Origin: Candidatus Xenobia bacterium
GTDB taxonomy: Bacteria; Vulcanimicrobiota; Xenobia; Xenobiales; QWHO01
NCBI GenBank assembly: GCA_045863235.1
Contig: BTUM01000011.1
Coordinates: 61,968 to 125,967, forward strand
Length of the DNA: 64,000 nt
Direction: 5' to 3'
Part shown: positions 49,901 to 64,000 of the stretch, piece after piece
Layout: each line of letters begins with the position of its first letter
How positions within the stretch are numbered: position 1 is the first letter of the stretch
The notes under the pieces: generated by a model
The model's database searches: none
Seen by the model: only the letters and a program-made list of their open reading frames with translations
What the model was told of the DNA's origin: nothing
Translations under genes and position numbers: made by a program

Positions 49901-50317
49901 GCCGGTGCAGTTGCCGGGGCGGTGGGTGGTCTACGCGGCCATTCGCTCGACGATCCGGCTGGCAAGACGCCGACCCTGCCTGGCCAGAGCTCTCCCCCCG
50001 CCGGCCAGGGGCCGGCCGGTCCCGTGTCCAGCGCGGCCCTGGGCGACGGAACGGTGCTTCAATTGAAGCGAGAGAACAAGGGGGTCGCCCATTCCGTGCT
50101 CATGGCCTCGCTCGAGGGCGTGGGTACAGTCACCAACAAAGCGGTCAGTTATCGCTATGGCAGACTGGCCGGACTCCTGGCCGGCCTGCCCACCGGCCTG
50201 GTGGGCGGGGCAGCCACGGGAAGCATCGGGATGGGGGCAGTCGGCGCCGTAGCGGGCTGGCAACTCGGGCAGAAGCTGGTCGACTGGCTGCTGCCCGACC
50301 GTCCCCCCCGGGGTTAG
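46991..50317 (+). CDS. Large multidomain protein with clostripain-like (C11) peptidase domain and C-terminal Gly-zipper hydrophobic segments
   Basis: LVMLGHGS (His), LILNSCLMG (Cys), SASPE and YGSYD; C-terminal GALGGALG...GLVGGAATG; no signal peptide. Confidence 0.75.
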   Translation: MDPLIGTSGLRSSNWTASLPQAAHEKAKESAVSGPTHDRALIGGLRLKQRQAPAPPPQPAPPPEPGPVTRAVSQLADLGLKILPGADEKIVKSFSEKYEALVRIGAPYTMVVSVQDQAELEAYTRLRTGKETPGSELSQTHSKLHELDGQGVSFYFERATGPLMGKLPLEGPKAWLRTDAAGAAILLARGESLRLLGADGQDQKLDSAASLDGSKLTGSAQKKDVRELLDFLESLGKVEADFPLDENILASDYETQYWNHQKMALTSGMVERPQNSDFQARRKMLGDLAEGGEVNLTLPGLTRPVPVNQEQAEAIRTFFTNAQPRDFDFFEAYQAFNASGGKIFARQLHGDARGQLVESKHPIAALVNLTAGGECVLLDSQGNLTGVKDLDSFSILAFGQSEPPGFRTDVEALEKTGFTAYRAKKADANGTVSEWDVPGPAGLLRELSQNRAVLVRKDDGTQSDKVIYGLEQFRQYARAQANAADPAAPPPPPRVDPTTPKDNLVLVYYSALHNSDGPLGVYDDYAYKLQEMGSSADRDLVVLRSDRSFKENLRVDYAQPGRFEPVARLGKSEMLSDADLLEDFIYESVKRHPDDKKIRLVMLGHGSADQGVMDDFLAQPDGSVKAERIPVDDLAGAIQSALDRIERETGKRPVIDNLILNSCLMGNASVLQALAETGDVRALSASPELMLDSFPAEAITSLKGDQDAKEYARQLVDIYKDAGAFPGGRDNRVNALVYGSYDCDPAKAATFKTALKDFFSACTARPDLIGYVRENIEDCPGYNIHPTGGPGPGFDNRDLIQVARRIQGDARIADKAIKQACGDLIEATKAQVIAQRGEADYADREGPSFFFPTERHRFDPSRPPTALLRDTGWSDFMTMVQAAGPRTQAHEQALKQLYEAQGESLVEMVMGLKPFNPTGQAMLEQQFVSKLEKPVQVSRLRQGLSTALKTVAGALGGALGFVVCAAAGLPAGAVAGAVGGLRGHSLDDPAGKTPTLPGQSSPPAGQGPAGPVSSAALGDGTVLQLKRENKGVAHSVLMASLEGVGTVTNKAVSYRYGRLAGLLAGLPTGLVGGAATGSIGMGAVGAVAGWQLGQKLVDWLLPDRPPRG

Positions 50318-50449
50318 CCAGGGCGGCGTTGCCGGGTCCCGGCCGCCGCATTTACGCCGTGAGGCGGTGGGGAGCGCTTGATACCGTCAGATGGCCACAG
50401 GCTCCGCCGCGCGGAGGACCAATCCCGGCCGTTTGCCGAAAGGGTTATC

Positions 50450-51955
50450 ATGAACCTCTTGGTAGAGCCGGCCGCTCACCTGGATTTCCTTGCTGCTCTG
50501 CTACCAGGACATACCTTGAATGGCCTGGGGGATGCCCGGGCGGCCCTGTTTTGCCTGGACAGTGGCTCAGCCGAGGAGCTCGAACGCCTGCACCAGTTTT
50601 GTCGTATCCGGCCGACTACGGCCGTGATCGTCGTGGCTCCCGAGCTGAGCGGCGTTGCCCTGGCGAGCCTGCGTGCAAAGGTGAAGAAGAACGGGGCCCA
50701 GGAGGCCCTGACCAGGGCCGAGCTTCCCGTCCACCTTCCCCGCGCACTCGATTACGCGCTCGAGCGTGCAAGCTTGCTGGGTGAACTGGATAGCTGGCGC
50801 CATTCCGAGGACGTGGCCGAGGCGGCCAACAAGCGCGCATCCCAGGTCCTGGCCATGGTGAGTCATGAGATTCGCGGGCGCATGACCGTGATTAACTTCA
50901 TGTCCACCCTGGCAGTGGACGAGCGCACCAAAGAGGAGCGCCGCAGCGAGTGCCTGCGGGTGCTCAAGGAATCCTCCGAATCCCTCCAGTCACTGCTCAA
51001 TGACCTGCTCGACCACGCCAAGCTACTTGAGGGCGAGCTGACTCTGTCCCCCATCGACTTCAACCTGCGCAATCTGCTTGAAAATACGGTGAGCGGCTTT
51101 CGAATCCTGGCCGAGAGCAAAGGGGTCGAGGTGCGCGTGGAGGTCAGCTCGGCCGTGCCCGACTCGTTGATCGGCGACCCCGGTCGCCTGCGCCAGATCC
51201 TCGTCAATCTCCTGGGCAACGCGCTCAAGTTTACCAGCCAGGGGTCGGTGATTCTGAGGGTGGAGCCTGGCGTGCGTTTTTCAGTGAGCGACACCGGAGT
51301 GGGCATCCCCAAACACCTTCATGAGCGCGTCTTCAAGCCCTACGCCCAGGCCGAGCATTCCACGGCACGCAAGTATGGCGGCACCGGACTGGGGCTGACT
51401 ATCGCTTCACGGCTCGTCGAGCTGATGGGCGGTAAGCTCGAGCTTGACAGCGAGCCGGGACGGGGCACCACTTTCTTCTTTACGGCTCAACTCGAGCCTC
51501 ACCCCACTGACCACCCCTCCGTGATCGAGCAGGTCGACCTGGCTGGCCTGCCGGTCCTGGTGGTGGACAGCCACGCACACAGTCAGCGGCACAGCCTGAG
51601 AGCTTTGACCGAGGCTGGAGTGGAGGTCGTAGCGGTCGATGACGGCCATCAGGCCCTTGATCGACTGCGCGAGAAGCACTTCAGGGTGGCCCTCGTTGAC
51701 ATGGTGCTGCCGGACGGGGACGGGTTTCAACTGGCTGAAGAGATTCGGGCTCTGGGCGATGAGACCCGGGTCGTGCTGCTCACTTCGGCTGGCCAGCGCG
51801 GCGACGCAGCTCGCTGTCTCGCGTTGGGTGTAGCAGGATATCTGACCCGCCCGGTTGAGCCAGAAGACCTGCTCGACGCAGTGCGCCTCGTGGAGGCCGG
51901 ATCACGCACCTTGGTGACTCGTCACACTCTCCGGGAGGCGCGTGAGTGCAGCTGA
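50450..51955 (+). CDS. Hybrid histidine kinase (receiver-like N-terminus, HisKA, HATPase, receiver)
   Basis: SHEIR, GDPGRLRQILVNLLGNALKFT, DTGVG and GGTGLGL; C-terminal receiver with DMVLP. Confidence 0.92.
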   Translation: MNLLVEPAAHLDFLAALLPGHTLNGLGDARAALFCLDSGSAEELERLHQFCRIRPTTAVIVVAPELSGVALASLRAKVKKNGAQEALTRAELPVHLPRALDYALERASLLGELDSWRHSEDVAEAANKRASQVLAMVSHEIRGRMTVINFMSTLAVDERTKEERRSECLRVLKESSESLQSLLNDLLDHAKLLEGELTLSPIDFNLRNLLENTVSGFRILAESKGVEVRVEVSSAVPDSLIGDPGRLRQILVNLLGNALKFTSQGSVILRVEPGVRFSVSDTGVGIPKHLHERVFKPYAQAEHSTARKYGGTGLGLTIASRLVELMGGKLELDSEPGRGTTFFFTAQLEPHPTDHPSVIEQVDLAGLPVLVVDSHAHSQRHSLRALTEAGVEVVAVDDGHQALDRLREKHFRVALVDMVLPDGDGFQLAEEIRALGDETRVVLLTSAGQRGDAARCLALGVAGYLTRPVEPEDLLDAVRLVEAGSRTLVTRHTLREARECS

Positions 51956-52015
51956 CGTGATAAGCGCCAAACCCTGCGCCCGGCGGTAAGCGGCGCCCCG
52001 GGACAAGCAGAAAGA

Positions 52016-52717
52016 CTACCCCGCAAGCCTCAAGCTCAGGCGTTCACGCATTTGCTTCAGCGCTCGCGTGTGCAGCTGCGAGACCCGCGGCTCGGACACC
52101 CTGAGCCGGACGGAGATCTCTTTCATCGGTACGTTCTCGAGGTAATACCAGGTCACAATCTGACGCTCACGCTCGGGCAGTTGCGCGATCGTCTTGGCTA
52201 ACTCGCGCTCCGACTCGGCGCGTTCGAACTCGGTTTCCACGCAGACGACGTCGGCCAGTTGCCGGGCCGGGCTGCCGTCCGGCCGTTCGGCATCGAACGA
52301 CTGGAGGAAGCTGCTGGCCAGATCCTGGCGGCGCCGGTCCACCTCTGCCGGGCTCAATCCAAGCTGCTCGCCCAACTCGCTGTTGTCGGGTTGACGACCG
52401 AGCTGTTGCAGCAGTTTCTCGTCCGCTCTCACCAGGTCATGGCAGCGGCGGCGGCCCGGACGACTCATCCAGTCCTGAGCCCGCAGCGAGTCCAGCATGC
52501 TGCCCCGTATCCGTGAGGAGGCAAATCGCATGAGTGATCCGCCCCGGGCGGGGTCAAAGCGACGCTCGGCCTCGAGCAGGCCCACGTAACCATCCTGGAC
52601 CAGATCCTCCCGGTCCAGCCCGCAGGGCAGGTGCCGGGCCAGCTTGCGAGCCATTCCCTCGACCATGGGAGCGAAGTGGAGCAGGGTCTGGTTGGTCTCG
52701 GTCTGGAGCACGCTCAT
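52016..52717 (-). CDS. FliA/WhiG-family sigma factor (sigma28-like)
   Basis: DLVQ.G..GL..A..RFDP, RIRGSMLDSLR..DW and MKEI...L.VSE.RVSQLH; GAGGAGG RBS. Confidence 0.92.
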   Translation of the reverse strand: MSVLQTETNQTLLHFAPMVEGMARKLARHLPCGLDREDLVQDGYVGLLEAERRFDPARGGSLMRFASSRIRGSMLDSLRAQDWMSRPGRRRCHDLVRADEKLLQQLGRQPDNSELGEQLGLSPAEVDRRRQDLASSFLQSFDAERPDGSPARQLADVVCVETEFERAESERELAKTIAQLPERERQIVTWYYLENVPMKEISVRLRVSEPRVSQLHTRALKQMRERLSLRLAG

Positions 52718-52815
52718 GGCGGTGACCTCCTCGAATTCGTTCTCATGAGCTTGCATTGACTGTCCCGTGGCCGGGCACTTGTGCCCGGGTCCAACTGGAG
52801 GGCTGGCCCGGGGAG

Positions 52816-52833
52816 GGTAGGGAGATCCCTACC
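52816..52833. promoter_or_regulatory. Perfect palindrome between divergent sigma genes
   Basis: GGTAGGGA-GA-TCCCTACC. Confidence 0.55.
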
Positions 52834-52927
52834 AGAGTGGGGGGAGAGCCTGCGAGAGGAGGCAGGAGGTGCCCGATGTCACCGTACCCCGCAGGCGCGT
52901 ATCCTGAGGTCAGGAGGTGAACGACCG

Positions 52928-53611
52928 ATGAAGCCCTGCTGGAGTCTGAAGACCGATGCCTGCGCCACCTGCCCTCTGCGATACCTCAAGAGTGTCGCCG
53001 GGACGTGCTGCCGCGCCGCCCGACCCACTGACGAGTTGCGCGCTCTGCAGCTCGACCTGCTCGACCGGGCGCGCCGCCAGGAGCCTGCCGCGATCGACGA
53101 GCTGATGGCCGGGTACGGCTGGTTGGTCGAGCACATCAGCCGAGGCTACTTTCTCCCAGGTGCAGAGCGCGAGGACCTGCTCCAGGAAGGCCGTCTGGGT
53201 CTGTGGGAGGCCGTCTGCAGCTTTGACGCGGCTTACGGTCGACCGCTGGGAGTGCACATCGCCATGCAGGTGCGCAACCGCATCCTGCAGGCCGTGCGCA
53301 CGGCCACTCGAAAAAAACACTCTCTGCTCAGCGAGGCTACCCCGCTTGAGGGTCTGCAGAGCCCGCCCGGCTCGGAGGATGGCGAACCTACCGTCGTGCT
53401 CACCGAGGATCTGGTTCGCAGGCTCAGCCACCACTTGCACGAGCGGCTCTCGGGCCTGGAGCTCAGTGCCCTGGCAAGCCGCCTGGGGGCAGGTTCCGTG
53501 GAGGACGTGGCGCGCCGCCAGCAGGTTTCCTCGCGCCAGGTGGAAAACGCTCTGTTCCGCGCCAGGCAAAAGGCAAGACAGGCCTTGATGCAACTCGGGC
53601 AAGCCGTCTGA
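52928..53611 (+). CDS. SigH (Firmicute sigma-H)-like sigma factor with Cys-rich N-terminal extension
   Basis: YFLPGAEREDLLQEG..GL..A...FD, AVRTATRKKH.LL and VENALFRA; AGGAGGTG RBS. Confidence 0.85.
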   Translation: MKPCWSLKTDACATCPLRYLKSVAGTCCRAARPTDELRALQLDLLDRARRQEPAAIDELMAGYGWLVEHISRGYFLPGAEREDLLQEGRLGLWEAVCSFDAAYGRPLGVHIAMQVRNRILQAVRTATRKKHSLLSEATPLEGLQSPPGSEDGEPTVVLTEDLVRRLSHHLHERLSGLELSALASRLGAGSVEDVARRQQVSSRQVENALFRARQKARQALMQLGQAV

Positions 53612-53624
53612 GAGGAGATAGACC

Positions 53625-54125
53625 GTGAATCTCGAGGATCTACCCGATCAGGCCGTGCTCCTGGATGCCTCGGGGCAGGTCGTGACGGTCAACCGACTCT
53701 GGACCGAGGCCGCCGGTCGCTATCAAGGCCTCGGGGTGAGGCCGGCTCCTGGAGAGAGCTATCTCGAGGCCCTGCGGGGACCAGACCCGAGCCTGCTTGA
53801 AGCGGTCGAAAGCGTCCTGAGCGGTCGGGCCACCCGCGCGACCTTGGAATATAGCTGCTTTGAGGAGCTCGAGCGTCGCCACTTCATGGCCCTGATCTGG
53901 CGGCTTGGAGAGGAAACCGTCGCCCTCCACCAGGATGTCACTCCGGCTGTGTCCCGGCGTCGTCGCTGGGCTCACGAGGTGAACAATAGCCTGACCGCGC
54001 TCATGTGCTACTTGAGCCTGGGCATGCCGATGCTGGACCCGGGGTCGGCCGCCCGCGAGCACCTGGTCCCGGCCGAGGAAGCCGCCCGCCAGCTGCTCGA
54101 CCTGGTCAACCAGCGCCCCAACTGA
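53625..54125 (+). CDS. PAS plus HisKA(DHp)-only protein, no ATPase domain
   Basis: LLDASG.V..VN..W PAS fold ending HQDVT, then WAHEVNNSL; ends at 166 aa; AGGAGA RBS. Confidence 0.72.
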   Translation: MNLEDLPDQAVLLDASGQVVTVNRLWTEAAGRYQGLGVRPAPGESYLEALRGPDPSLLEAVESVLSGRATRATLEYSCFEELERRHFMALIWRLGEETVALHQDVTPAVSRRRRWAHEVNNSLTALMCYLSLGMPMLDPGSAAREHLVPAEEAARQLLDLVNQRPN

Positions 54126-54143
54126 GGGGAGTGACGGAACCGA

Positions 54144-55205
54144 TCAGGAGAGGCTGGCGCGAATCTCGATGAGTGCGGGCAGCGAAGACATGAACGCGTC
54201 CACCACCATGCTATCGAAATGCTTGCCGCGACAGCGCTCGAGCTCGGCCACCGCTTCCTCGACGGGCCAGGCTGCCTTGTAGGGCCGGGGGGAGACCAGC
54301 GCGTCGAACACGTCGCAGACGGCCACGATGCGGCCGTGTAGCGGGATGGCCTCGCCGGAAAGGCGGGCCGGGTAGCCGTTGCCATCCCACTTCTCGTGGT
54401 GGGTCCGGGCGATCACCTCGGCCGCCTGAAGCAAGGGAACGTCGCTGCCGGACAGGATGGCGGCTCCGATCAATGTGTGGGTCTTGATGACCTCGAACTC
54501 CTCGGGCTCGAGCTTGCCAGGCTTGAGCAGGATGGAATCGGGAATGCCCACTTTGCCGATGTCATGCAGGGGGCTGGCCAGGCGAACCAACTCGCACTCC
54601 TCGGGGTCGAGACCGAGCCGTGAGGCGACGATCCCGGCATACTCGCCCAACCGCCGGGTATGATGGCCCGTGTCGTCGTCGCGGTACTCGCAGGCCAGGC
54701 CCAGGCGTTTGAGGATCTCGTGGTGAGCCCGGATGATCTCGCCGGAGCGACGCAGCACCTCCTGCTCGAGTGTCTCGCGCTCGTGCTCGGTACGCACGTA
54801 GAGGCGTCGAATCTGGAGCATGTTGCGCACTCGGGCCACCACCTCGACCGGCAGAAAAGGCTTGGCCAGAAAGTCGCGTGCGCCGGCAGTCAGGGCTCGC
54901 ACCCTCTCAGAAGGATCGTTCATGCCCGTCAATACCAGGATCGGTGCGTAGCCGTCGGGCTCGAGCTCGGTCCAGGTCTGCATGAGCTCTTCCCCGCTCA
55001 GGCCCGGCATGGACAGGTCGAGAACCACCGCATCAGGGTTGTAAATCTGGTAGAGGTCGCGGGCCTGAAAGGGGTCACTGATGCCGAGCACGTTGCGAAA
55101 GCCGGCCCGGTGGAGAATGTCAGTGAGCAGCTTGACCAGAGATTCGTCGTCATCCACAACCAGGACACGTCCGTTCTGGTCATCACCAGCTTGAATCGCC
55201 AACAT
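54144..55205 (-). CDS. Response regulator with HD-GYP phosphodiesterase domain (RpfG-like)
   Basis: Receiver (VVDD, LDLSMP, KP); TGHH, LHDIGK, HHEKWDGNGYP and DVFDAL. Confidence 0.95.
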   Translation of the reverse strand: MLAIQAGDDQNGRVLVVDDDESLVKLLTDILHRAGFRNVLGISDPFQARDLYQIYNPDAVVLDLSMPGLSGEELMQTWTELEPDGYAPILVLTGMNDPSERVRALTAGARDFLAKPFLPVEVVARVRNMLQIRRLYVRTEHERETLEQEVLRRSGEIIRAHHEILKRLGLACEYRDDDTGHHTRRLGEYAGIVASRLGLDPEECELVRLASPLHDIGKVGIPDSILLKPGKLEPEEFEVIKTHTLIGAAILSGSDVPLLQAAEVIARTHHEKWDGNGYPARLSGEAIPLHGRIVAVCDVFDALVSPRPYKAAWPVEEAVAELERCRGKHFDSMVVDAFMSSLPALIEIRASLS

Positions 55206-55233
55206 CACACACCTCCTCAAGAATGCTCGCTCA

Positions 55234-57510
55234 TCACGTCGCACATTGCAGACAGTGACTCACCGCGTCCAGGACTTGTTGGGGTACGTATGGTTTCGGC
55301 AGAAAGTGGACCCCCTCAACTTCGTCATCAGAGTGGGCCAGTTCCTCGCGACTGTAGCCTGACGTGAGCAGAACCCGCAGGTCGGGGCGGTCTGCCCGCA
55401 GCACTCTGGCCAGCTGGCGCCCGGACAGATTGCCGGGCATCACCAGATCGGTGAGAAGGAGCTGAATCTCCTCGCGATGCTGCTGCCAGACCCGAAGGGC
55501 GGCTGGCCCCGAGTCTGCTCCCAGCACTCGGTGGCCCGCGCGGGTCAAGATGCGCGTAATCAAGGAGCGAACGCGCTCGTCATCCTCGACGAGAAGGATG
55601 GTGTTGGCCCCATCGGTGGGGGTGGTGGCTTCGGGAGCGTGGGCCGAGGATGCGAGCATGGTGACCTGCCTTGCAGGCGACGGGGAGCTGGCGGTCAGGG
55701 CCGGGAGATGGACCTCGAACGTGCTGCCCTGGCCCGGTTTGCTCGTAACCAGCATGAAGCCCTCGTGCTGCTTCACGATGCCGTAGACGCTGGCCAGGCC
55801 CAGGCCGGTGCCGCGACCGACCTCCTTGGTCGTGAAGAAGGGCTCGAAGATATGCTCGAGGTGCTCGGGGGAGATGCCCGTCCCGCTGTCCTGGACCCGA
55901 ATGACCACGTAGATGCCGGACCGGGCTCCCGAATGCCCTGCCGCTTGCTCTTTGTCCAGCTCGACCAGGCCGGTCGCCAGAGTCAACCGTCCCCCTCCCG
56001 GCATTGCATCGCGGGCATTCACTGCCAGGTTCAAGACGATCTGGTCGATCATCGAGCGATCAGCCCGCACCGGGGGAAGGTCGCCGGCCAGCTGCAGCAC
56101 GATCTCAACGGTTTCTCCCAGGGTTCTCTCAAGCAACCCGGAAAGCTCTTTCAGCACATTCGAGATGTCCAACTCCACCGGTTCGATGAGCTGGCGTCGT
56201 CCGAACATGAGCAGCTGACGGATGAGCTGGGCGGCCATGTGCGAGGCCTGCAGGGCCTCGCGCAGCAGGTCGGAATCTTCCGCCTTGATCGTCGGGGAGT
56301 GCCCGGCGATGGCGAGGTTGCCCTGAATGACCGTCAACAGGTTGTTGAAGTCGTGGGCCACTCCTCCGGCAAGCTGGCCGATTGCCTCCATCTTCTCGGC
56401 CTGGCGAAGGCGGTCTTCCAGGGCTCGATTGATCTCCTCGGACTTCTTCAAGTCGGTCACGTCGAGCACGAATCCCACCACTCGCTCGGGGCGACCGGAG
56501 GCATCGCAGGAAGGGCGCCCGGCGCGATTGGAGAGCCAGCGCACCTCCCCGCAGGCCAGCACGACCCGAAACTCGCTCTCGCTGGCCTGTCTGGAGCTCA
56601 TCGCATTCCGGGCTTGGAAGCCGACCCGCTCGCGGTCCTCAGGGTGCACGAGATCGGTGAGGAATTCGAGGGACGGGGGGGATTCGGTCAGCTTCAGGAG
56701 CTTGAGCAACTCGGCCGACAAGTAGAAGCTCCCCTCTTCGAGGTTCCACTCCCACACCCCCATGCGGGCTTCCGAGAGGGCCAGATGAAAGCGCTCGTTG
56801 ACCTCCTGGAGAGCCTCCTGGGCCATCTTGACCGGCGTGATGTCAGTGGCCACGCCCGCCACCCGATATACCTGGCCCGACTCGTCATGCACGGCAAAGG
56901 CCCGGTCGCGAAGCCACCGCACCTCGCCGTCTGGTCGCACGATGCGATAGATCTCATCGTAGTCACCCGATGCCTGACGCTGCACGGCCAGCTCGATGCG
57001 GTCACGGTCCTCGGGGTGTACCAGGTCCAGCCAGGAGCGAGGAGATGCGAGCAAGCTGGACACGGCCTGACCCCAGATAGCCTCGTAGGCGGGGCTGACG
57101 TAGAGCATCTGCTCCTTGCTCACGTCGGTCAGCCAGAACACCTCCCCCACGTTCTCCGCCAGCTGGCGAAAACGAGCCTCGGCCTCGCGAACGACGGCCT
57201 CGGCCTCCTCGCGCTGGCTGATCTCGCGCCGCCAGCGCGCTTCCATGGCGCCCACCGTGAAATAGAGCAACAAGCTGGTGAGCCAGACGAAGCCGAACCC
57301 CTTCCAGGTCTGCATGGATGCCTCCAACTCAGGGCTCTCGAACCCCTTGACCAGCCAGTCGGAGCAGGCGATATAGGCAGTCGCCGCCAGAAAGTAGACC
57401 ACCGCCAGTCGGGCCGCAGCGTACTTCCCGAATCGGGCAGAGCTGGTGAAGGAGTTCTTCCTCGTCGAGCCCATGAAAGTGTGGATCACCGCGCCGTCAG
57501 TGGGCGACAT
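55234..57510 (-). CDS. Membrane hybrid sensor kinase (two TM, two PAS, HisKA/HATPase, receiver)
   Basis: [36 protein letters not shown]; receiver TDLVMP. Confidence 0.95.
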
Positions 57511-57556: not shown

Positions 57557-58243
57557 TCAACGTTTGACGGCCAGAACCAACCAGTCCTGATCGGCGTAAG
57601 TGCGGCCGAGCTCGACCGTCTCGAAGCCACTGGCTTCGAGAAGACCGCGTAGCTCCTGGGGCCCGAAGAAATGATAAGTGCGCTGGCGGGCCCGGGACAA
57701 GATGGCAAAGTTGAAGAGCAGCACCAGGACCAGGGCTGGCAAGAGAGCCAGAAAACGGGCCCGGTGGCGCCAGCCGCGAGCCAGCTGATCGGTGACCAGC
57801 GCGCCCAGACGGAACTCGGAGGCGGGCGTGGCCAGCACCAGGCGCCCACCAGGCTTCATCACGCGGCCCAACTCGCCCAGCGTGAAGGCAGGCCGGGGCA
57901 GGCTATAGAGAACGTTGGAGGAAACGATGGCGTCGAACCACTGGTCGGGAAAGGGGAGCGGGCCATCAAGGTCGACCAGGGCCAGTTCCGCCCAACGCCC
58001 GCGCCTGGCTGCGCGCTCGAGCATGGCCGCGCTGGCATCCAGCCCTGTAACCCGGGCGGTGGGGCAACTTTCCTGCACTGCCCGGGTCACCTGACCCGTG
58101 CCGCACCCGGCGTCCAGAATGTGTTGCAGGCTGCAGGGGGCGAGACGGTCGACGAGGTCACGAACCAGCTCGCGATAGGGCTCGAGCTGGCACAGCGAGT
58201 CATACACCCGGGCGTAGGCGCTCCAGAAACCAGGCCAGGACAA
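57557..58243 (-). CDS. Class I SAM-dependent methyltransferase
   Basis: ILDAGCGTG, GLDAS..ML, LPFPD..FD and RVMKPGG; start taken at TTG 58243. Confidence 0.88.
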   Translation of the reverse strand: MSWPGFWSAYARVYDSLCQLEPYRELVRDLVDRLAPCSLQHILDAGCGTGQVTRAVQESCPTARVTGLDASAAMLERAARRGRWAELALVDLDGPLPFPDQWFDAIVSSNVLYSLPRPAFTLGELGRVMKPGGRLVLATPASEFRLGALVTDQLARGWRHRARFLALLPALVLVLLFNFAILSRARQRTYHFFGPQELRGLLEASGFETVELGRTYADQDWLVLAVKR

Positions 58244-58339: not shown

Positions 58340-60025
58340 ATGACTCCTCCACCCGAAGTCGCCCGAATCGCACTTTGCATCCGCGAGCTGAACGAAATTG
58401 AGCTGCCTCAGTACTTCGCTCTGCGCCGGGAGGTCTACGCTCGCTCGGGCTACCTTCCTGCCGGGGGGTCGGGTCTGGACGTGGATCCCTTCGACTGGCG
58501 TTGCCGTTTCCTGGGAGCCTTCCTGGACACCGGGGAAAGCCAGCGCCTGATAGGGGGAGCACGATTGATCACCGAGTCTCCCGGGCCCCTCTCTGAGGCC
58601 GTCGAAGGATTGGCCGGCCCAGACCTGACGCGCGCCGAGAGCGGTTTTTTTGCCGAGCGGATCTTCCAATTCCGGCCTCAGCTGGAAAGGCGCCTGTACC
58701 CGGGTCAGCGACTGGTGGAGTTCGGGCGCACGGTCTGCCGCGAGGAGTACCGCAGCTTCGGGGTGGGCAAGGCCCTGGTGCTCGGGTTGCACGGCCTGGC
58801 ACTGAACCTGGGGGCGGCGTACGGCATCGCCTGCGCACCCGCTCACCTGGTTTCCTTTTACACGAGGCTGGGTGGCATGGTGCTCAACCAGGCTGCCACC
58901 TTACACCAGGACCTGACAGTCAAAGCGGTTCCCTTGCTCGTTGACCTGACCCGGGCCGCCAGCGCCTCGCTGGAGGCCCACGAAGCAGCTCGCCGGCTCC
59001 GCGCCGGAGGGATGCTCACCCTGATGGGCGACCCGGGCCAGTTGCGCCCCCGGGGGGAAGAGCCGGTTTGCCTCCTGCGCAACGACCTGTCCCCCCAGGA
59101 CGTCCCCTACGACTGGACATCGCCCGAGCTGACCCTGAGTCATCTGAGTCACCCCGTCAATCTGCACGACGAGACGCTGCGCGACGGGCTGCAGTCAGCC
59201 TCGGTGCGCCACCCGGACATCGTGGGCAAGCTGGAGATCTTGCACGCCATCGCCGATCTGGGCGTGGGCAGCGCCAACCTGGGCATGCCCGGGGCAGGAG
59301 GAAAGGTGGCCGCCGACGTGCTGCGGCTGGCCGAGGAGATTGCCGAGCAGAACCTGCCGCTGGTGCCCTGCTGCGCTGCGCGCACCTGCCAGGCCGATCT
59401 CGACCCGCTGCTCACCATCCTCGACCGCACCGGAGTACGCCTGGAAGTCGGGCTCTTCCTGGGCTCGAGCCGCATCCGCCAACTGGCCGAGGGATGGGAC
59501 CTGGACCACCTTCTGCGCCTGACCGAGGAGTGGGTGGGCTATGCAGCGGATCGGGGGCTCGAGGTCATGTTCGTGACCGAGGACACCTGCCGAGCCGATC
59601 CCGAGCACCTGCGTCGGCTGTACAGCACCGCCGTTGACCGGGGGGCACGTCGAATCTGCGCCACCGACACCGTCGGGTGCGCCAGTCCTTACGGGGTAAC
59701 CGCCCTGATTCGATCTCTGCGCTTGATGGTCGGGCCCCGAGTGGCCATCGACTGGCACGGCCATGGTGATCGGGGGCTGGGAGTGCCCAACAGCCTGGCG
59801 GCCCTGCTTGCTGGAGCTGATCGCGTGCACGCCACCGCGTTAGGTATCGGCGAGCGCTGTGGCAACACCCCCATGGAGCTGATGCTGCTGCATCGAGCCC
59901 GGCACACAGGGCAACCCTGGGTGGCCGAACGAGTGCAAGGCTACTTGAACACCGTTGCCCGCGAGCTGGAGCTGGAGAGCCCGCCTGCGTGGCTATCCCC
60001 CGAACTGGAGGTGCTCCCGGTTTGA
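58340..60025 (+). CDS. Fusion: LuxI/FeeM-like GNAT acyltransferase plus DRE-TIM (LeuA/homocitrate synthase-like) catalytic barrel
   Basis: N-terminus LRREVY...D.DPFD...IGGARLI...VEFGR...FYTRLG; C-terminus HDETLRDGLQ, EDT.RA, DTVG, WHGHGDRGL and GIGERCGN; GGGAGG RBS. Confidence 0.85.
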   Translation: MTPPPEVARIALCIRELNEIELPQYFALRREVYARSGYLPAGGSGLDVDPFDWRCRFLGAFLDTGESQRLIGGARLITESPGPLSEAVEGLAGPDLTRAESGFFAERIFQFRPQLERRLYPGQRLVEFGRTVCREEYRSFGVGKALVLGLHGLALNLGAAYGIACAPAHLVSFYTRLGGMVLNQAATLHQDLTVKAVPLLVDLTRAASASLEAHEAARRLRAGGMLTLMGDPGQLRPRGEEPVCLLRNDLSPQDVPYDWTSPELTLSHLSHPVNLHDETLRDGLQSASVRHPDIVGKLEILHAIADLGVGSANLGMPGAGGKVAADVLRLAEEIAEQNLPLVPCCAARTCQADLDPLLTILDRTGVRLEVGLFLGSSRIRQLAEGWDLDHLLRLTEEWVGYAADRGLEVMFVTEDTCRADPEHLRRLYSTAVDRGARRICATDTVGCASPYGVTALIRSLRLMVGPRVAIDWHGHGDRGLGVPNSLAALLAGADRVHATALGIGERCGNTPMELMLLHRARHTGQPWVAERVQGYLNTVARELELESPPAWLSPELEVLPV

Positions 60026-61062
60026 TACCCTTCGAATGCAATCGCCCGGTACTGTTGGAAGACTGCACCCTGGCCCTGACGCAACTCGACCGCGAGCAGC
60101 AGCTCGATCACCTGGCCAACCTGGCGCTTCTCGGGGTTGGACGGGTTGAGCTGAAGCCGGGGCCAGATCTGGCCGTACTGGTGGAGGAGTGCGCCGAGCT
60201 GGGACTGACCGCGGTGGTCTGCCTGGCGAACGCGGCCGCCCTGGAAGAAACCCTGATGCCGGGGCTCGAGGTGCGGGTGAGTCCGGCGCTGCTGCCGACA
60301 GCCCGGGAGCGGCAACTGCCCTGCTGGCTGGTGCTGTCCGGGGCGGGGCAGATCTCTCCGGCTGCCCTGGCCCGGGAGTTGACGAGGGCCCGCGACCACC
60401 AGGTGCTGGGGGTCTGCATGCAGGACGAGCTGGGCGTGGCTACCCCCGATGGGGTGTTCCGCCTGGGCGCTTTCTGCCGCAACGCCCAGGAGGCCCTGGG
60501 AATGCAGATCGAGATTCTCTGGAGCCAGCGCGATACAGAAGGAACAGGGATCTACGGAGCGCTGCAAGCCCTGCGCTCGGGTCTGAGCGGCGTGCGCTGC
60601 GCCGGCCTGGGGCTGGGGGGCATGATCGCTCTCGACACGCTCTTGCTCAACCTGGTGCTGGAAGGGCTCTGGTCCGGCCCCACCGAGGCTCTCAAGACCT
60701 GCTGCGCCCACCTGGTGGAAAGCCTGGACCTGCGGCTGCCGGCCAACTATCCCCTGGCTGGCCGGGACGCCTTCTGCACTTCCACAGGCGTGCATGCCCG
60801 GGCGATGCAGAAGGCGCTCCAGATGGGCCAGCCGGCACTGGCGGACCAGGTCTACAGCGTGGTGGCTCCGGGGCGATTCGGCTTCTCTCACCGCATCGAG
60901 GTAGGCCCCTTGTCGGGGCGCTCCAACGTGGAGTGCTGGCTGATGGAGCGCGGACTGAGCGCGTCGCCCAAGACGGTCGGTCGGATTTTGGAGAGGGCCA
61001 AGGCCCACTATCGTTCCCTGGACGATCAGGAGATTCTCGCCCTGCTGGAGGACCGCTCATGA
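60022..61062 (+). CDS. Degenerate DRE-TIM barrel plus LeuA-type C-terminal helical subdomain
   Basis: Catalytic motifs lost (EDCTLAL, no HxH); retains NYPLAGRDAF.TSTGVHA, VYS.V.P..FG and IEVGPLSGRSNV; TTGA overlap. Confidence 0.78.
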   Translation: MIPFECNRPVLLEDCTLALTQLDREQQLDHLANLALLGVGRVELKPGPDLAVLVEECAELGLTAVVCLANAAALEETLMPGLEVRVSPALLPTARERQLPCWLVLSGAGQISPAALARELTRARDHQVLGVCMQDELGVATPDGVFRLGAFCRNAQEALGMQIEILWSQRDTEGTGIYGALQALRSGLSGVRCAGLGLGGMIALDTLLLNLVLEGLWSGPTEALKTCCAHLVESLDLRLPANYPLAGRDAFCTSTGVHARAMQKALQMGQPALADQVYSVVAPGRFGFSHRIEVGPLSGRSNVECWLMERGLSASPKTVGRILERAKAHYRSLDDQEILALLEDRS

Positions 61063-62045
61063 CCCCTGCCAACCTTCTGCGCACTCGCTTTGGCTACATC
61101 GCCGCCCGAGCCATTGGAGTGGCGGTCGAGCTCGACCTGTTTACCCGGATGGCGGAGGGTAAGGCCAGCCTGCACGAGTTGTGCCTGGCGACTCGCTCTT
61201 CCGAGCGAGGCCTGCGCGCCCTGCTCAAGGCTCTGGTTCCGCTGGACCTGGTGCGCGAGGACCGTCCTGGCCATTTTCAGACCAGCCCGGAATCGGAGCG
61301 CTACCTGGTCAGCCACTCCCCCCACTACCTGGGAGGAATGATTCGTCAAGCCGACCGGCTCTGGGAGCGCTGGGGCCGGCTGGGCGAGGCGGTGCGCAGC
61401 GGACTTCCCCCCGAGGCCGGTATCGAGTCGAATGAAGATGACGGGAGGTTCTTCTCGGAGTTCGTGCAGGGGCTCTACAACCTGAACGCTCCCGCCGCCC
61501 GCGAGCTGGCCCGTGAGCTGGCCCGCTTCGAGCCAGCGCGGGTGCTGGACGTTGGAGCCGGGAGCGCGGTCTGGAGCCTGGCATTGGTGGCCGAGCGCCC
61601 GGCCACGCTGGTCACCGCGCTGGACCGCGAGCGGGTGCTCGAGCAGGTGACCCGAGCTTACGTGCGCGAGCACGGGGCCGAGAATTATTATAGTTTTCTT
61701 GCTGGCGACCTGCGCGAGTCGGAGCTTGAGCCGGAAGGTTACGACCTGGTCATCCTGGGCCACGTGCTCCACTCGGAGGGGAGGGAGGGCTCGCGAAGGC
61801 TGCTCGCGCGAGCCTTTCGTGCCCTGCGCCCGGGAGGGGCTCTGGCCGTGGCCGAGGTGGTGCCCGATGCCGAGCAGTCTGATGTTTATTCCTGGCTCTT
61901 CGGGCTTCACATGCTGCTGCTTACGACCGAGGGCGACGTGTTCGAGGCCTCCGAGCTGGAGGCCCTGGTGGGCGAGGCGGGCTTCGGCGCCCTGCGCTGG
62001 CCGGAGTTGCCCGGGCCCTACGCGGTGCTGCTGGCGCGGCGCTGA
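61059..62045 (+). CDS. O-methyltransferase (Methyltransf_2 with dimerisation domain)
   Basis: AVELDLF, RVLDVGAGSA, FLAGD, GHVLH and ALRPGG; ATGA overlap. Confidence 0.92.
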   Translation: MTPANLLRTRFGYIAARAIGVAVELDLFTRMAEGKASLHELCLATRSSERGLRALLKALVPLDLVREDRPGHFQTSPESERYLVSHSPHYLGGMIRQADRLWERWGRLGEAVRSGLPPEAGIESNEDDGRFFSEFVQGLYNLNAPAARELARELARFEPARVLDVGAGSAVWSLALVAERPATLVTALDRERVLEQVTRAYVREHGAENYYSFLAGDLRESELEPEGYDLVILGHVLHSEGREGSRRLLARAFRALRPGGALAVAEVVPDAEQSDVYSWLFGLHMLLLTTEGDVFEASELEALVGEAGFGALRWPELPGPYAVLLARR

Positions 62046-62049
62046 AACA

Positions 62050-63999
62050 TCAGGACACGTTCACCGGGAGGCGGCCAGTCGCCGCGGGCTCGGGTGGCTC
62101 CAGGCCCGTGGCCTCGAGCCAGGCTCGACGGAAGCGCTCCGACTCGCGCAGTGACCCGGCAAGGTCGCCCAGGTGGTTGAGACACTCGAGCATGCTCCCG
62201 GAAGCCTTCTGGTCGAGGGGCTCGAGCGCGAGGAGCCGGCGATAGCGGGCGACCGCCTCGCCAGGTCGTCCCTCGTGACGATCTTGCTCGGCCAGGAACG
62301 TCAGCAGCTCGCGGAACCGATCGCGCAGCTCCTGGCGACGCTCGCTGATGAAATCGAGGTAGAGATCGTGGGCCAGAAAGTCACCGGTGTAGAGCCGCTC
62401 GGCCCGCAGCATGCGGGCGGTGGCTCGCTCGCGATCCCCTTGCTTGCTGGCCTGCCAGCCTTCCTGCACCAGGCGCTCGAACTCCATCACGTCATAATCG
62501 ACCAGCCCGTTCAGGTCGAGCCGGTAGCCGGTGGCGGTGCGCTCGAGCTCGATGCGATCGCCGGCCACGCTTCGGAACATGCGGCGCAGCAAGGAAACGT
62601 GCTGGGCCAGGCTGTGGCGCGAGCGGTCGGCCGGATAGTCAGGCCAGAAGCACTCCAGGGCCTGGTCGGTAACGATCGTGAGGTCTCGCGAGCAGAGGAT
62701 GTACTTCAGCAACTGAGCCAGCAACGAGCGCTTCAAGTCGGTAAGTTTCTGCGGCATTCCATCGGCGATGATCTCGAGCCCCCCGAAGGCCCGGATGGAG
62801 ACGCTCCCGATGGGTCCCAAACTGCGTTGGAGGGCGTAACCAGCGGCCTCCCGCACGGTGCGAGCGGGGTCGCCCTGCACCAGGCGTCGGAGGATGCGCT
62901 CGGCCCGAGGAGAGCTGAGGCTGCCCAGTAGCACGGCCGCCTGGCGGCGCAGTGTGTATCGCGGCTCGTCGAGCACCGGCTCGATCTGGTCCAGAACGCA
63001 GTCACCCATGGACTGGAGGATCCCGATGGCAGACTGGCGGTGCTCGGCCAGTTCGGTGGCCTGCAAGAGAAGTCCCACCGACAGTTGCCAGGGATCGCTG
63101 CGCCAGAAGTCCTCGTAGCCGTGCTCGCGCATGAGCGTGAGGGCCCGTTCCAGGGAAGGACCGGGACCGGGCTGGGCTGCGGCCAGGACCATGTGGGCCT
63201 TCATCTCCCAGTAGCTCGAGCGGGCCTGCGCGGCCAGGCCGAGAGCCCGCTCCAGATAACAGGCCGAAGGCTCGAGCTGGCCTGAGCGAAGCTCCAGGTA
63301 ACCCAGCGCGCACAGGCACTCGGGCGCATACAGGCCGTAGCCATTGAGGTCGAGCACACGCAGCATCTCCTCGCCAGCCACCCGGGCCTGCTCGGTGGCC
63401 CCGGTCAGCAGGGAGAGGAGCATGCGATTGCGGTAGTACCAGGGCTTGAACTGGGCTGGAACGTGGTTCTCGGAGATGCTGGCCAGCAGGCGGGCGGCCT
63501 GGGCCAGCTCATTGCGCTCCAGGCAGACCATGGCTCTCAGGTTCTCGAACCCCTTGGCGACGTAGACGTGCCCGGCGCGATTTGCATTGACCCAGACATC
63601 CTCCACCAGTTCTCCGGCCGTCGAGAGCTGGCCCGCCATAATCAGCACCAGGGCTTTGTTCATAGCCAGCTGGTAGATGACCAGAGCCCAGTTTTTGCGC
63701 CGAAAGAACTCGATTCCCTCGCCCAGTACGGCCAGCGCCTCGGAGAAATTCCCCTGAGGGAAATGATAGGCGAACCCGTAGGCCAGGCAGGCCCAGGAAA
63801 TGGCGCGCGGGTGGCTGCACGCCCAGGCCAGGGCGTGGCTTTCGGCCATGAGGAAGTAGCCGCGCTCGAAGTCGCGGCCCGAATAGACCAGGGTGGCCCC
63901 AAGCAGGGAGCCCAAGATCGAGCGCATGGCGTTGTCGGAGGGCCCGCATTTCTGATGCGTGTCAAGAGAGAGACTGCGGAGGCCGTAACCACGCGAGTT
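62050..63999 (-). CDS. Large TPR/HEAT plus winged-HTH/BTAD (SARP-like) transcriptional regulator, 5'-truncated
   Basis: IRAFGGL, FWPD, GYRL....DYDV.EFE and LYTGDFL BTAD motifs; frame is open to the window edge. Confidence 0.85.
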   Translation of the reverse strand, partial: NSRGYGLRSLSLDTHQKCGPSDNAMRSILGSLLGATLVYSGRDFERGYFLMAESHALAWACSHPRAISWACLAYGFAYHFPQGNFSEALAVLGEGIEFFRRKNWALVIYQLAMNKALVLIMAGQLSTAGELVEDVWVNANRAGHVYVAKGFENLRAMVCLERNELAQAARLLASISENHVPAQFKPWYYRNRMLLSLLTGATEQARVAGEEMLRVLDLNGYGLYAPECLCALGYLELRSGQLEPSACYLERALGLAAQARSSYWEMKAHMVLAAAQPGPGPSLERALTLMREHGYEDFWRSDPWQLSVGLLLQATELAEHRQSAIGILQSMGDCVLDQIEPVLDEPRYTLRRQAAVLLGSLSSPRAERILRRLVQGDPARTVREAAGYALQRSLGPIGSVSIRAFGGLEIIADGMPQKLTDLKRSLLAQLLKYILCSRDLTIVTDQALECFWPDYPADRSRHSLAQHVSLLRRMFRSVAGDRIELERTATGYRLDLNGLVDYDVMEFERLVQEGWQASKQGDRERATARMLRAERLYTGDFLAHDLYLDFISERRQELRDRFRELLTFLAEQDRHEGRPGEAVARYRRLLALEPLDQKASGSMLECLNHLGDLAGSLRESERFRRAWLEATGLEPPEPAATGRLPVNVS

Positions 64000-64000
64000 T

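What the first reader, a model, noticed from the sequence alone, without database searches (positions are those of the whole stretch)
58340..61062. Complementarily split LeuA-like synthase, predicted obligate heterodimer with a pseudoenzyme
Seen: gene 1 has all the barrel catalytic motifs (DETLRDG, HGH, GERCGN) but stops just after the barrel. Gene 2 has a barrel stripped of these motifs but keeps the post-barrel subdomain (AF.TSTGVHA...VY...GPLSGRSN). Known: in LeuA and homocitrate synthase dimers this subdomain, with its His, reaches over to complete the partner's active site. Inference: duplication followed by reciprocal loss, giving one active site per heterodimer and possibly a remodelled substrate pocket.
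Basis: partly seen in the sequence, partly recalled or inferred. Interest (0 to 1): 0.8.

Follow-up and report, generated by a model that had tools for sequence, protein, structure and literature searches.

The report
Synthase split into two complementary subunits
A normally self-pairing metabolic enzyme has been duplicated into two damaged copies that most likely work only together, one supplying the catalytic barrel and the other the lid that completes it; a similar split is known from nitrogen-fixing clostridia, but here it arose separately and was reused inside an undescribed, possibly signalling, gene cassette.

Summary
The split is real. Gene 1 (58340-60025) keeps all barrel catalytic residues and stops before the lid subdomain. 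Gene 2 (60022-61062) folds as a full TIM barrel without those residues but keeps the lid His258/Tyr278. The pair models as a complex (score 0.90, best control 0.02; likeness to solved dimers may explain the pass). The split is lineage-wide: 16 of 44 genomes of this class (Ca. Eremiobacterota) carry a core split pair; 7 also carry this GNAT-fused copy, facing a MalT-like regulator. In 4 of 8 fused loci both chains lost their catalytic residues together. A symmetric Arg-Asn interface contact is halved reciprocally in the fused copies. Clostridial NifV-alpha/omega has the same architecture, from a separate origin. Verdict: a new variant of a known kind. An obligate heteromer is likely (0.8); substrate (a hydrophobic 2-oxo acid) and the cassette's role (signal synthesis) are inferred only.

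The parts
58340..59023 (+). Gene 1, N-terminal GNAT domain (residues ~10-228), FeeM/LuxI-like fold, with an R-x-x-G-x-G loop (RSFGVG, residues 138-143)
   Evidence: Pfam FeeM E 1.7e-9 and Acetyltransf_5; model aligns to FeeM 2g0b Z 16.8 (rmsd 2.6, 173 aligned), TofI 3p2h Z 15.4, YjcF 1q2y Z 15.2; loop
59024..59149 (+). Gene 1, flexible linker; most relatives carry C-x4-C-x3-H-x-H here, this copy does not
   Evidence: pLDDT < 50 at 231-270; motif in 16 of 21 fused proteins, absent in window, L071, G023, P0018, P0020
59150..60025 (+). Gene 1, catalytic DRE-TIM barrel (subunit 'A'): R281, D282, E414, H473, H475, E505, R506, N509, interface R478; no post-barrel lid subdomain
   Evidence: fold match 6ktq Z 37.8
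60022..60726 (+). Gene 2, dead TIM barrel (subunit 'B', residues 1-235): metal and catalytic residues lost, interface N210 kept
60727..61062 (+). Gene 2, post-barrel subdomains I/II with His258 (GVH, 60787-60795), Tyr278 and GPLSGRSN
   Evidence: Pfam HCS_D2 247-329, E 0.0023, below cut-off; His258 and Tyr278 are in the modelled interface
61059..62045 (+). O-methyltransferase (dimerisation + Methyltransf_2), ATGA-coupled to gene 2; seen in 2 of 8 fused loci only (window, L071)
57557..58243 (-). Divergent class I SAM methyltransferase (likely TTG start at 58243), single copy in the genome; orthologue divergent from the GNAT in 6 of 11 cassettes
62050..64000 (-). Convergent MalT-like STAND/TPR/HEAT/BTAD regulator, C-terminal half (the N-terminal half lies at the end of contig C2); single copy in the genome
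   Evidence: present facing the GNAT operon in 11 of 12 GNAT loci, the 12th ends at a contig edge

Best explanation
Genes 1 and 2 encode the two subunits of a LeuA/homocitrate-synthase-type Claisen condensing enzyme whose ancestor was a homodimer. In such dimers the lid subdomain of one chain caps the active site of the other. After a tandem duplication in an ancestor of this bacterial class, copy A lost its lid and copy B lost its barrel chemistry, leaving an A-B complex with one composite site: metal, 2-oxo acid and general-base Glu from A, His/Tyr lid and acetyl-CoA-capping subdomain from B. That split operon was duplicated again and A was fused behind a FeeM/LuxI-fold acyltransferase inside a cassette of GNAT + convergent MalT-like regulator +/- methyltransferase. 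Shown: the sequence anatomy, fold, selection, distribution and trees. Modelled: the A-B interface. Inferred: that the complex is obligate and active; that it condenses acetyl-CoA with a hydrophobic 2-oxo acid; that the genome's fused LeuD-LeuC-like isomerase and LeuB-like dehydrogenase finish a one-carbon elongation; and (weakest, about 0.4) that the GNAT and methyltransferases turn the product into a small signal read by the regulator.
For: Complementarity: 16 of 16 core pairs have A with 8 of 8 catalytic residues and no lid His, B with the His/Tyr and a dead barrel; every A is followed directly by a B. In 11 of these 16 genomes no intact family member was found. Graded loss: core A runs from 400 aa (degenerate lid still present) to 309 aa, core B from 416 to 328 aa. 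Coupled loss: of 8 fused pairs, 4 keep both A catalysis (7-8 of 8 residues) and B His, 4 lost both. Interface: R226 and N266 (intact numbering) are both kept in 52 of 52 intact proteins, 16 of 16 core A and 15-16 of 16 core B, but fused A keeps only the Arg (20 of 21; Asn 0 of 21) and fused B only the Asn (7 of 8; Arg 0 of 8); R478 of gene 1 with N210 of gene 2 is the lowest-error contact of the model. Complex score 0.90, best of 3 controls 0.02, mark reached by 116 of 157 solved and 2 of 215 mismatched pairs, runs agree in at least 93% of contacts, partner pLDDT at least 88; His258 and Tyr278 of gene 2 and 501-508 of gene 1 are in the interface. Literature passages: accessory domain caps the other chain's site and truncation impairs activity (PMC9860122); subdomain I lies at the partner's active centre (PMC8276798). 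Pathway partner: fused isomerase orthologue in 14 of 16 pair-bearing genomes, 0 of 28 others; an intact family member sits in an operon with such an isomerase and dehydrogenase in a Streptomyces NRPS/PKS cluster.
Against: No biochemistry. The complex pass may come from likeness to solved LeuA/HCS dimers, my own alignments and an Mn ion were outside the calibration, and homodimer or cross-pair controls were not run; the output gave no His-to-metal distance. The coupled-loss count rests on 8 related loci: only 2 independent contrasts, both concordant, sign test p 0.5 (the partner trait was entered equal to the first, as read). The Arg-Asn test was chosen after seeing the model. This genome also holds a core B and an intact paralogue that could serve as partners. 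Catalysis is dispensable in the cassette: lost 6 times among 20 fused proteins and the whole pair is absent from 3 GNAT-regulator cassettes (L072, L073, L075). Single origin of all A (support 80) and all B (94) is not starred, and an earlier tree with long branches did not recover it.
Confidence: 0.8

Rival explanations
1. The two chains do pair, but in this cassette the module is a ligand-sensing or scaffolding unit (2-oxo acid or acetyl-CoA sensor) that controls the fused GNAT or the MalT-like regulator, and turnover matters little even in the window's copy.
For: 4 of 8 fused pairs lost catalytic residues in both chains yet keep open frames of 528-559 and 224-364 aa; 6 separate losses among 20 fused A versus 0 among 16 core A; the core pair with the same five pocket residues is already present in all 7 genomes, so a second catalyst looks redundant. 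Enzymes that bind and control MalT are recalled from memory, not from a call.
Against: The window's copy keeps 8 of 8 catalytic residues and the His/Tyr under dN/dS 0.06-0.10; 15 of 21 fused A keep at least 7 of 8; the dead copies may simply be decaying, and in G017 the pair is gone while GNAT, methyltransferase and regulator stay.
Confidence: 0.2
2. Gene 1 is active without gene 2 (as a homodimer or monomer); gene 2 is an optional regulator.
For: Gene 1 has every barrel residue; no activity was measured.
Against: It lacks the whole accessory subdomain whose truncation impairs IPMS enzymes (PMC9860122 passage); it lacks the interface Asn kept in 52 of 52 intact chains; no A without an adjacent B was seen in 44 genomes.
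Confidence: 0.07
3. Gene 1 takes its lid from the core B (contig C49) or from the intact paralogue (C51), and gene 2 is a relic.
For: Both exist in this genome and keep His, Tyr and the interface Asn.
Against: Gene 2 is translationally coupled to gene 1 and under purifying selection, strongest in the lid; its His is kept only where the neighbouring A is intact.
Confidence: 0.05
4. The stop between the genes is an assembly error or a recent pseudogenising event.
For: None found.
Against: Junction bridged in 4 of 4 runs; same junction in L071; gene 2 begins with its own second barrel, so removing the stop would not rebuild a single-chain enzyme; same layout in 24 loci.
Confidence: 0.01

Closest known systems
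Clostridial NifV-alpha / NifV-omega (two-gene homocitrate synthase)
   Same: Adjacent, overlapping genes; one is a barrel with DTTLRDG, HAH, GERTGN that ends after the barrel (265 aa, Pfam HMGL-like only), the other a dead barrel with the lid (315 aa, Pfam HCS_D2 only, ESGIH) in C. butyricum. Listed as homocitrate synthase subunits omega and alpha in PMC12342839 (passage) and as nifV1/nifV2 in PMC5027557 (passage). The 1991 C. pasteurianum paper is recalled, not held.
   Different: Other subfamily and separate origin (NifV rows form the outgroup side, 99*); gene order reversed (omega first); no nif context; hydrophobic, not 2-oxoglutarate-type pocket; GNAT fusion; graded intermediates and doubly dead copies exist here.
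Intact single-chain 'LeuA family protein' of Acidobacteriota, Myxococcota, Gemmatimonadota (IYDWN...DETLRDGLQSPSV subfamily)
   Same: Direct parent family: about 55-60% identity over the barrel, same pocket consensus A/M/V/C/H.
   Different: Single chain with barrel and lid: 75 of 80 loci intact, 3 cut by contig ends, 2 frameshifted, none a tandem split pair. Substrate of this subfamily is not established by anything I read.
LeuA (IPMS), homocitrate synthase, HphA and MAM synthases (DRE-TIM Claisen condensing enzymes)
   Same: Fold (Z 33-38), catalytic motifs, cross-subunit lid.
   Different: Homodimers. Pocket residues IPMS L/E/S/N/E, HCS H/R/T/S/H, HphA A/D/A/M/S (PMC12961565 passages) against A/M/V/C/H here (mapped through). 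No NCBIfam cut-off reached (best 140 bits); no LeuA regulatory domain.
FeeM N-acyl amino acid synthase and LuxI-type acyl-homoserine lactone synthases
   Same: Fold of the gene 1 N-terminal domain (FeeM Z 16.8, TofI Z 15.4); Pfam FeeM above cut-off; convergent synthase-regulator layout resembles some luxI/luxR pairs (recalled).
   Different: 17% and 12% identity only; keeps the CoA-type R/Q-x-x-G-x-G loop that carrier-protein-dependent GNATs replace (PMC11685415 passage); partner is a ~1,120-aa STAND/BTAD protein, not LuxR; no Autoind_synth hit at E 0.1.
Enzyme/prozyme heteromers such as trypanosomatid deoxyhypusine synthase and AdoMetDC
   Same: A dead paralogue is needed for activity (search listings and abstract starts only: PMC3663545; PMC5201418).
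   Different: Here the dead chain is predicted to donate catalytic residues directly, and the live chain is itself incomplete.

Membership tests
DRE-TIM LeuA/HCS-type condensing enzyme (A+B together) | TIM barrel with D-x-T-L-R-D-G, H-x-H metal ligands, G-E-R-x-G-N and the E-D general-base motif | tested here: met
   gene 1, 8 of 8 residues; fold Z 37.8 to 6ktq
DRE-TIM LeuA/HCS-type condensing enzyme (A+B together) | Post-barrel subdomain with G-x-H His and Tyr reaching the partner's site | tested here: met
   gene 2 His258, Tyr278 present and in the modelled interface; His-metal distance not reported
DRE-TIM LeuA/HCS-type condensing enzyme (A+B together) | Acetyl-CoA-dependent condensation activity | not testable with these tools
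   needs a CoA-release assay
2-isopropylmalate synthase LeuA proper | IPMS pocket (L/E/S/N/E), curated cut-off, regulatory domain or leu/ilv context | tested here: not met
   pocket A/M/V/C/H; 140 bits against cut-off 517; KARI (IlvC) found in 2 of 44 class genomes, not in G000
Homocitrate synthase (Lys20/LysS/NifV) | His and Arg that bind the 2-oxoglutarate C5 carboxylate; AAA-lysine or nif context | tested here: not met
   Ala346 and Met410 at those places; LysX below cut-off in 5 of 5 genomes, DapA present in 5 of 5; no nif gene in the neighbourhood
HphA benzylmalate synthase | Pocket A73/D157/A159/M186/S242 and HphB/HphCD partners | tested here: inconclusive
   Ala at the A73 place matches, the other four differ; a fused isomerase co-occurs; no HphA sequence was compared
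NifV-alpha/omega-type split synthase | Lid-less live barrel plus dead barrel with lid, adjacent genes | tested here: met
NifV-alpha/omega-type split synthase | Descent from NifV and nif-cluster location | tested here: not met
   trees place A and B inside the IYDWN subfamily; no nif genes nearby
[quoted passage not shown]
   Pfam PF21926 38.1 bits, cut-off 27; Z 16.8
FeeM-type N-acyl amino acid synthase | Acyl-carrier-protein donor, altered P-loop | tested here: inconclusive
   a CoA-type R/Q-x-x-G-x-G loop is kept in most copies; donor not testable
LuxI acyl-homoserine lactone synthase | Autoind_synth profile and LuxR partner | tested here: not met
   no PF00765 hit at E 0.1; neighbour is STAND/BTAD; fold similarity only (Z 15.4)

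The most novel reading that the evidence does not exclude
The cassette is an undescribed cell-signalling circuit of this bacterial class: a FeeM/LuxI-fold acyltransferase makes a signal read by a MalT-like STAND/BTAD activator, the fused split synthase builds a chain-elongated (homo-amino-acid-type) part of that signal, and in several lineages the heterodimer has been converted, both chains at once, into an all-dead metabolite sensor. The family would then hold a complete natural series: homodimer, tandem pair with full-length degenerate halves, trimmed obligate heterodimer, heterodimer with an asymmetric interface, dead sensor, loss.
Probability: 0.25. Interest if true: 0.8.

Novelty: new variant of a known kind. 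Interest (0 to 1): 0.6.

Why it matters
How homodimers become obligate heterodimers by complementary loss is an open question usually studied by simulation or ancestral reconstruction. Here living genomes hold the intermediates (intact chain, full-length degenerate pair, trimmed pair, pair with a halved interface contact), often in one genome, with a simple CoA-release assay to test each step. It would also give a one-site version of the LeuA/HCS dimer for asking what the lid His does, show that annotation pipelines mislabel dead subunits as 2-isopropylmalate synthase, and point to an unstudied GNAT-STAND cassette in activated-sludge Eremiobacterota.

Tried and rejected
Assembly error or frameshift: rejected. 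Remodelled pocket: rejected at five positions. Homocitrate synthase for lysine: rejected. Re-citrate synthase standing in for a missing citrate synthase: Si-type citrate synthase found in 5 of 5 genomes. De novo leucine synthesis: IlvC found in only 2 of 44 genomes, and G025 has a canonical leu operon beside the core pair; elongation of valine-derived ketoisovalerate is not excluded. The PRK03437-type dehydrogenase tracks the pair less well (over cut-off in 11 of 44, not in the six g4 genomes at E 1e-90). Split pairs outside the class: none among 80 loci or 35 Myxococcota loci (30 with all five motifs, 5 missing only the first pattern, of which 3 read DESLRDG and 2 were not resolved); that search used a stricter first look and 401 sampled genomes, so B-type proteins named Myxococcota stay without a shown partner. 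Gene 2 alone finds only 3 homologues by word search. The metagenome scan gave 1 locus. Promoter/terminator scan: nothing above chance. RNA-library contigs cover the pair but do not show transcription. First barrel tree was an unfinished careful run returned as a quick tree with long branches and did not group the A chains; the reduced trees left out the two most degenerate fused pairs (G013, G023), near-duplicate core rows and, for A, the NifV/LeuA outgroup. Literature searches for a description of this split found none: (open-licence library only; supplements not searched). The 1991 NifV paper and the T. thermophilus HCS structure paper could not be opened. Earlier scan findings: nothing relevant.
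Full report
OBSERVATION. The region holds three coupled genes on the + strand: gene 1 (58340-60025, 561 aa), gene 2 (60022-61062, 346 aa, TTG start overlapping the stop, GGAGG upstream) and an O-methyltransferase (61059-62045). Gene 1 has DETLRDG, TED, HGH and GERCGN and ends about 50 residues later without the AF..GxH lid motif. Gene 2 has none of the barrel motifs but keeps AFCTSTGVHA, VY and GPLSGRSN. Its AlphaFold2 model is a complete eight-stranded barrel plus lid (pLDDT 91.4, pTM 0.87) closest to MAM1, homocitrate synthase and IPMS structures (TM up to 0.79 to 6ktq). The junction is bridged by contigs of 4 of 4 runs laid, from 4 studies, and dN/dS against a close relative is 0.06-0.20 in all parts.

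THE SPLIT IS INHERITED AND LINEAGE-WIDE. The same genome has a second complementary pair on contig C49 (A 395 aa, full length but with the lid His replaced; B 406 aa, dead barrel, TGVH intact) and an intact single-chain paralogue on C51. Homologues from related genomes are named Ca. Eremiobacteraeota; class Xenobia is my inference. Of 44 class genomes, 16 carry this core pair, always A directly followed by B, and 28 have no family member in these searches. All 16 core A have 8 of 8 catalytic residues and no lid His; all 16 core B have His and Tyr and a dead barrel. Lengths form a series, A 400 to 309 aa and B 416 to 328 aa. An intact paralogue was found in 5 of the 16. Four genomes of other classes in the phylum have a single intact chain, as do 75 of 80 loci from other phyla, with 3 cut and 2 frameshifted. 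In reduced trees all B chains form one side of a branch (94) and all A chains likewise (80), with fused A a starred group (97): one origin followed by duplication of the split operon is not rejected, not proven. Of 150 cluster representatives found with the B profile, 49 scored as B-type, about six of them fragments; three of the 18 B-type proteins first looked up are named Myxococcota, so further independent splits are possible but unconfirmed.

EVIDENCE FOR A HETEROMER. In IPMS the accessory domain of one chain caps the active site of the other and truncation impairs activity (PMC9860122, passages); in homocitrate synthase subdomain I lies at the partner's active centre, with His292/Tyr303 in the T. 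thermophilus enzyme (PMC8276798, passages). The catalytic role of the Glu-His dyad is recalled. The model of gene 1 residues 255-561 with gene 2 and Mn scored 0.90 against a best control of 0.02 (mark reached by 116 of 157 solved and 2 of 215 mismatched pairs; runs agree in at least 93% of contacts; partner pLDDT at least 88). His258 and Tyr278 of gene 2 and the GERCG stretch of gene 1 are in the interface. Like dimers are solved, so this shows likeness, not binding. Two sequence patterns are independent of that memory. First, among 8 fused loci the B His is kept in the 4 whose A keeps 7-8 of 8 catalytic residues and lost in the 4 whose A is dead; this is only 2 independent contrasts (p 0.5), though each dead A has intact relatives on the tree, and two more concordant pairs are hinted by equal contig lengths (P0021/P0157, P0018/P0192). 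Second, the model's tightest contact, gene 1 R478 with gene 2 N210, joins two residues that are both kept in 52 of 52 intact chains and almost all core chains, whereas fused A keeps only the Arg (20 of 21, Asn 0 of 21) and fused B only the Asn (7 of 8, Arg 0 of 8). This test was chosen after seeing the model. It predicts that homodimers of either chain lose both copies of the contact.

SUBSTRATE AND PATHWAY. Using the five pocket positions defined for HphA, IPMS and HCS (PMC12961565, passages), mapped through the phmmer alignments, gene 1 has A346/M410/V412/C440/H497, the consensus of intact members. The pocket is not remodelled, lacks the His/Arg of homocitrate synthase and has Ala where IPMS has Leu: a hydrophobic 2-oxo acid, perhaps larger than ketoisovalerate (inference). 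The genome has no canonical LeuA among its HMGL hits, but has a fused LeuD-LeuC-like isomerase and a LeuB-like dehydrogenase. The isomerase orthologue occurs in 14 of 16 pair-bearing genomes and 0 of 28 others (kin are not independent). IlvC was found in 2 of 44. An intact relative lies in an operon with such an isomerase and dehydrogenase inside a Streptomyces NRPS/PKS cluster. So the family does one-carbon 2-oxo-acid elongation of an unknown substrate.

THE CASSETTE. The GNAT was found in 10 of 401 phylum genomes. In 11 of 12 GNAT loci it faces a ~1,120-aa STAND/TPR/HEAT/BTAD regulator (the 12th ends at a contig edge); 6 of these 11 have the same divergent methyltransferase; 8 have the fused split synthase; 3 have the GNAT alone. 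GNAT, methyltransferase and regulator are single-copy in this genome. Catalysis was lost 6 times among 20 fused proteins, never among 16 core A, and the GNAT-only copy of G017 is sister to the most decayed pair. The stable core is therefore GNAT plus regulator, and the synthase an accessory. The GNAT keeps a CoA-type loop, unlike carrier-dependent FeeM. A signal synthase with its receptor is the likeliest reading (about 0.4), by analogy only.

WHAT IS KNOWN. Clostridia encode homocitrate synthase as NifV-omega and NifV-alpha (PMC12342839 table passage; PMC5027557 passage; the 1991 report is recalled and was not held). The C. butyricum pair shows the same anatomy: a 265-aa live barrel and a 315-aa dead barrel with the lid. 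Trees keep it apart from this family. The principle is thus in print at the gene level. I found no description of this split, the fusion or the cassette in seven searches of the open library; subscription papers and supplements were not seen.

VERDICT. Real, conserved, and best explained as an obligate A-B heteromer with one composite active site (0.8). A new variant of a known kind, made more interesting by the living evolutionary series, the reciprocally halved interface contact and the unstudied GNAT-STAND cassette. Interest 0.6.

Noticed in passing
L001:9149-11553 (G000 contig C49): Core split pair in the same genome at an earlier stage: both chains full length, A with a degenerate lid, B with a dead barrel; GTGA overlap.
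   Followed up: yes
L002:4794-9762 (G000 C51) and L026: An intact paralogue with a different pocket (A/S-T/V/V-I/H) follows xanthine-dehydrogenase-family molybdoenzyme genes; in L026 an enoyl-CoA hydratase, Zn dehydrogenase and 2-hydroxyglutaryl-CoA-dehydratase-like genes are adjacent, resembling an aroyl-CoA pathway.
   Followed up: partly
window 59024-59149 and fused homologues: A C-x4-C-x3-H-x-H motif, a possible zinc site, lies between GNAT and barrel in 16 of 21 fused proteins but is broken in the window's copy.
   Followed up: partly
L072, L073, L074, L075: GNAT-only cassettes with the same regulator; in L073 and L074 a B12-dependent radical SAM gene takes the place of the methyltransferase.
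   Followed up: partly
L004, L005, L009 upstream of the GNAT gene: A ~178-aa divergent gene without a Pfam hit plus a lone receiver-domain gene replace the methyltransferase; L004 has two regulator copies in tandem.
   Followed up: no
P0224, P0228, P0250 and related: Dead-barrel, lid-intact proteins named from Myxococcota; partners not located.
   Followed up: partly
L083:6192-15944 (Streptomyces sp. KN37 plasmid): NRPS/PKS cluster with two crotonyl-CoA carboxylase/reductases, an intact family member, fused isomerase, dehydrogenase, acyl-AMP ligase and FabH: a possible way to learn the family's substrate.
   Followed up: no
window 52016-53611: Two divergent sigma-70-family genes (FliA-like on -, a region-2-only hit on +), next to two hybrid histidine kinases and an HD-GYP response regulator (50378-57510).
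   Followed up: no
window 46991-50317: 1,108-aa protein with no Pfam hit at E 1e-5; its middle part has HG and CLM motifs that recall clostripain-type peptidases (recalled, untested).
   Followed up: no
window 58405-58621: Two runs carry a strain allele with about 35 substitutions and a compensated one-base insertion/deletion confined to the GNAT region, suggesting recombination there.
   Followed up: no
window 62050-64000 and G000 contig C2 end: The regulator gene is broken across the contig ends C11 and C2, which are therefore probably adjacent.
   Followed up: partly
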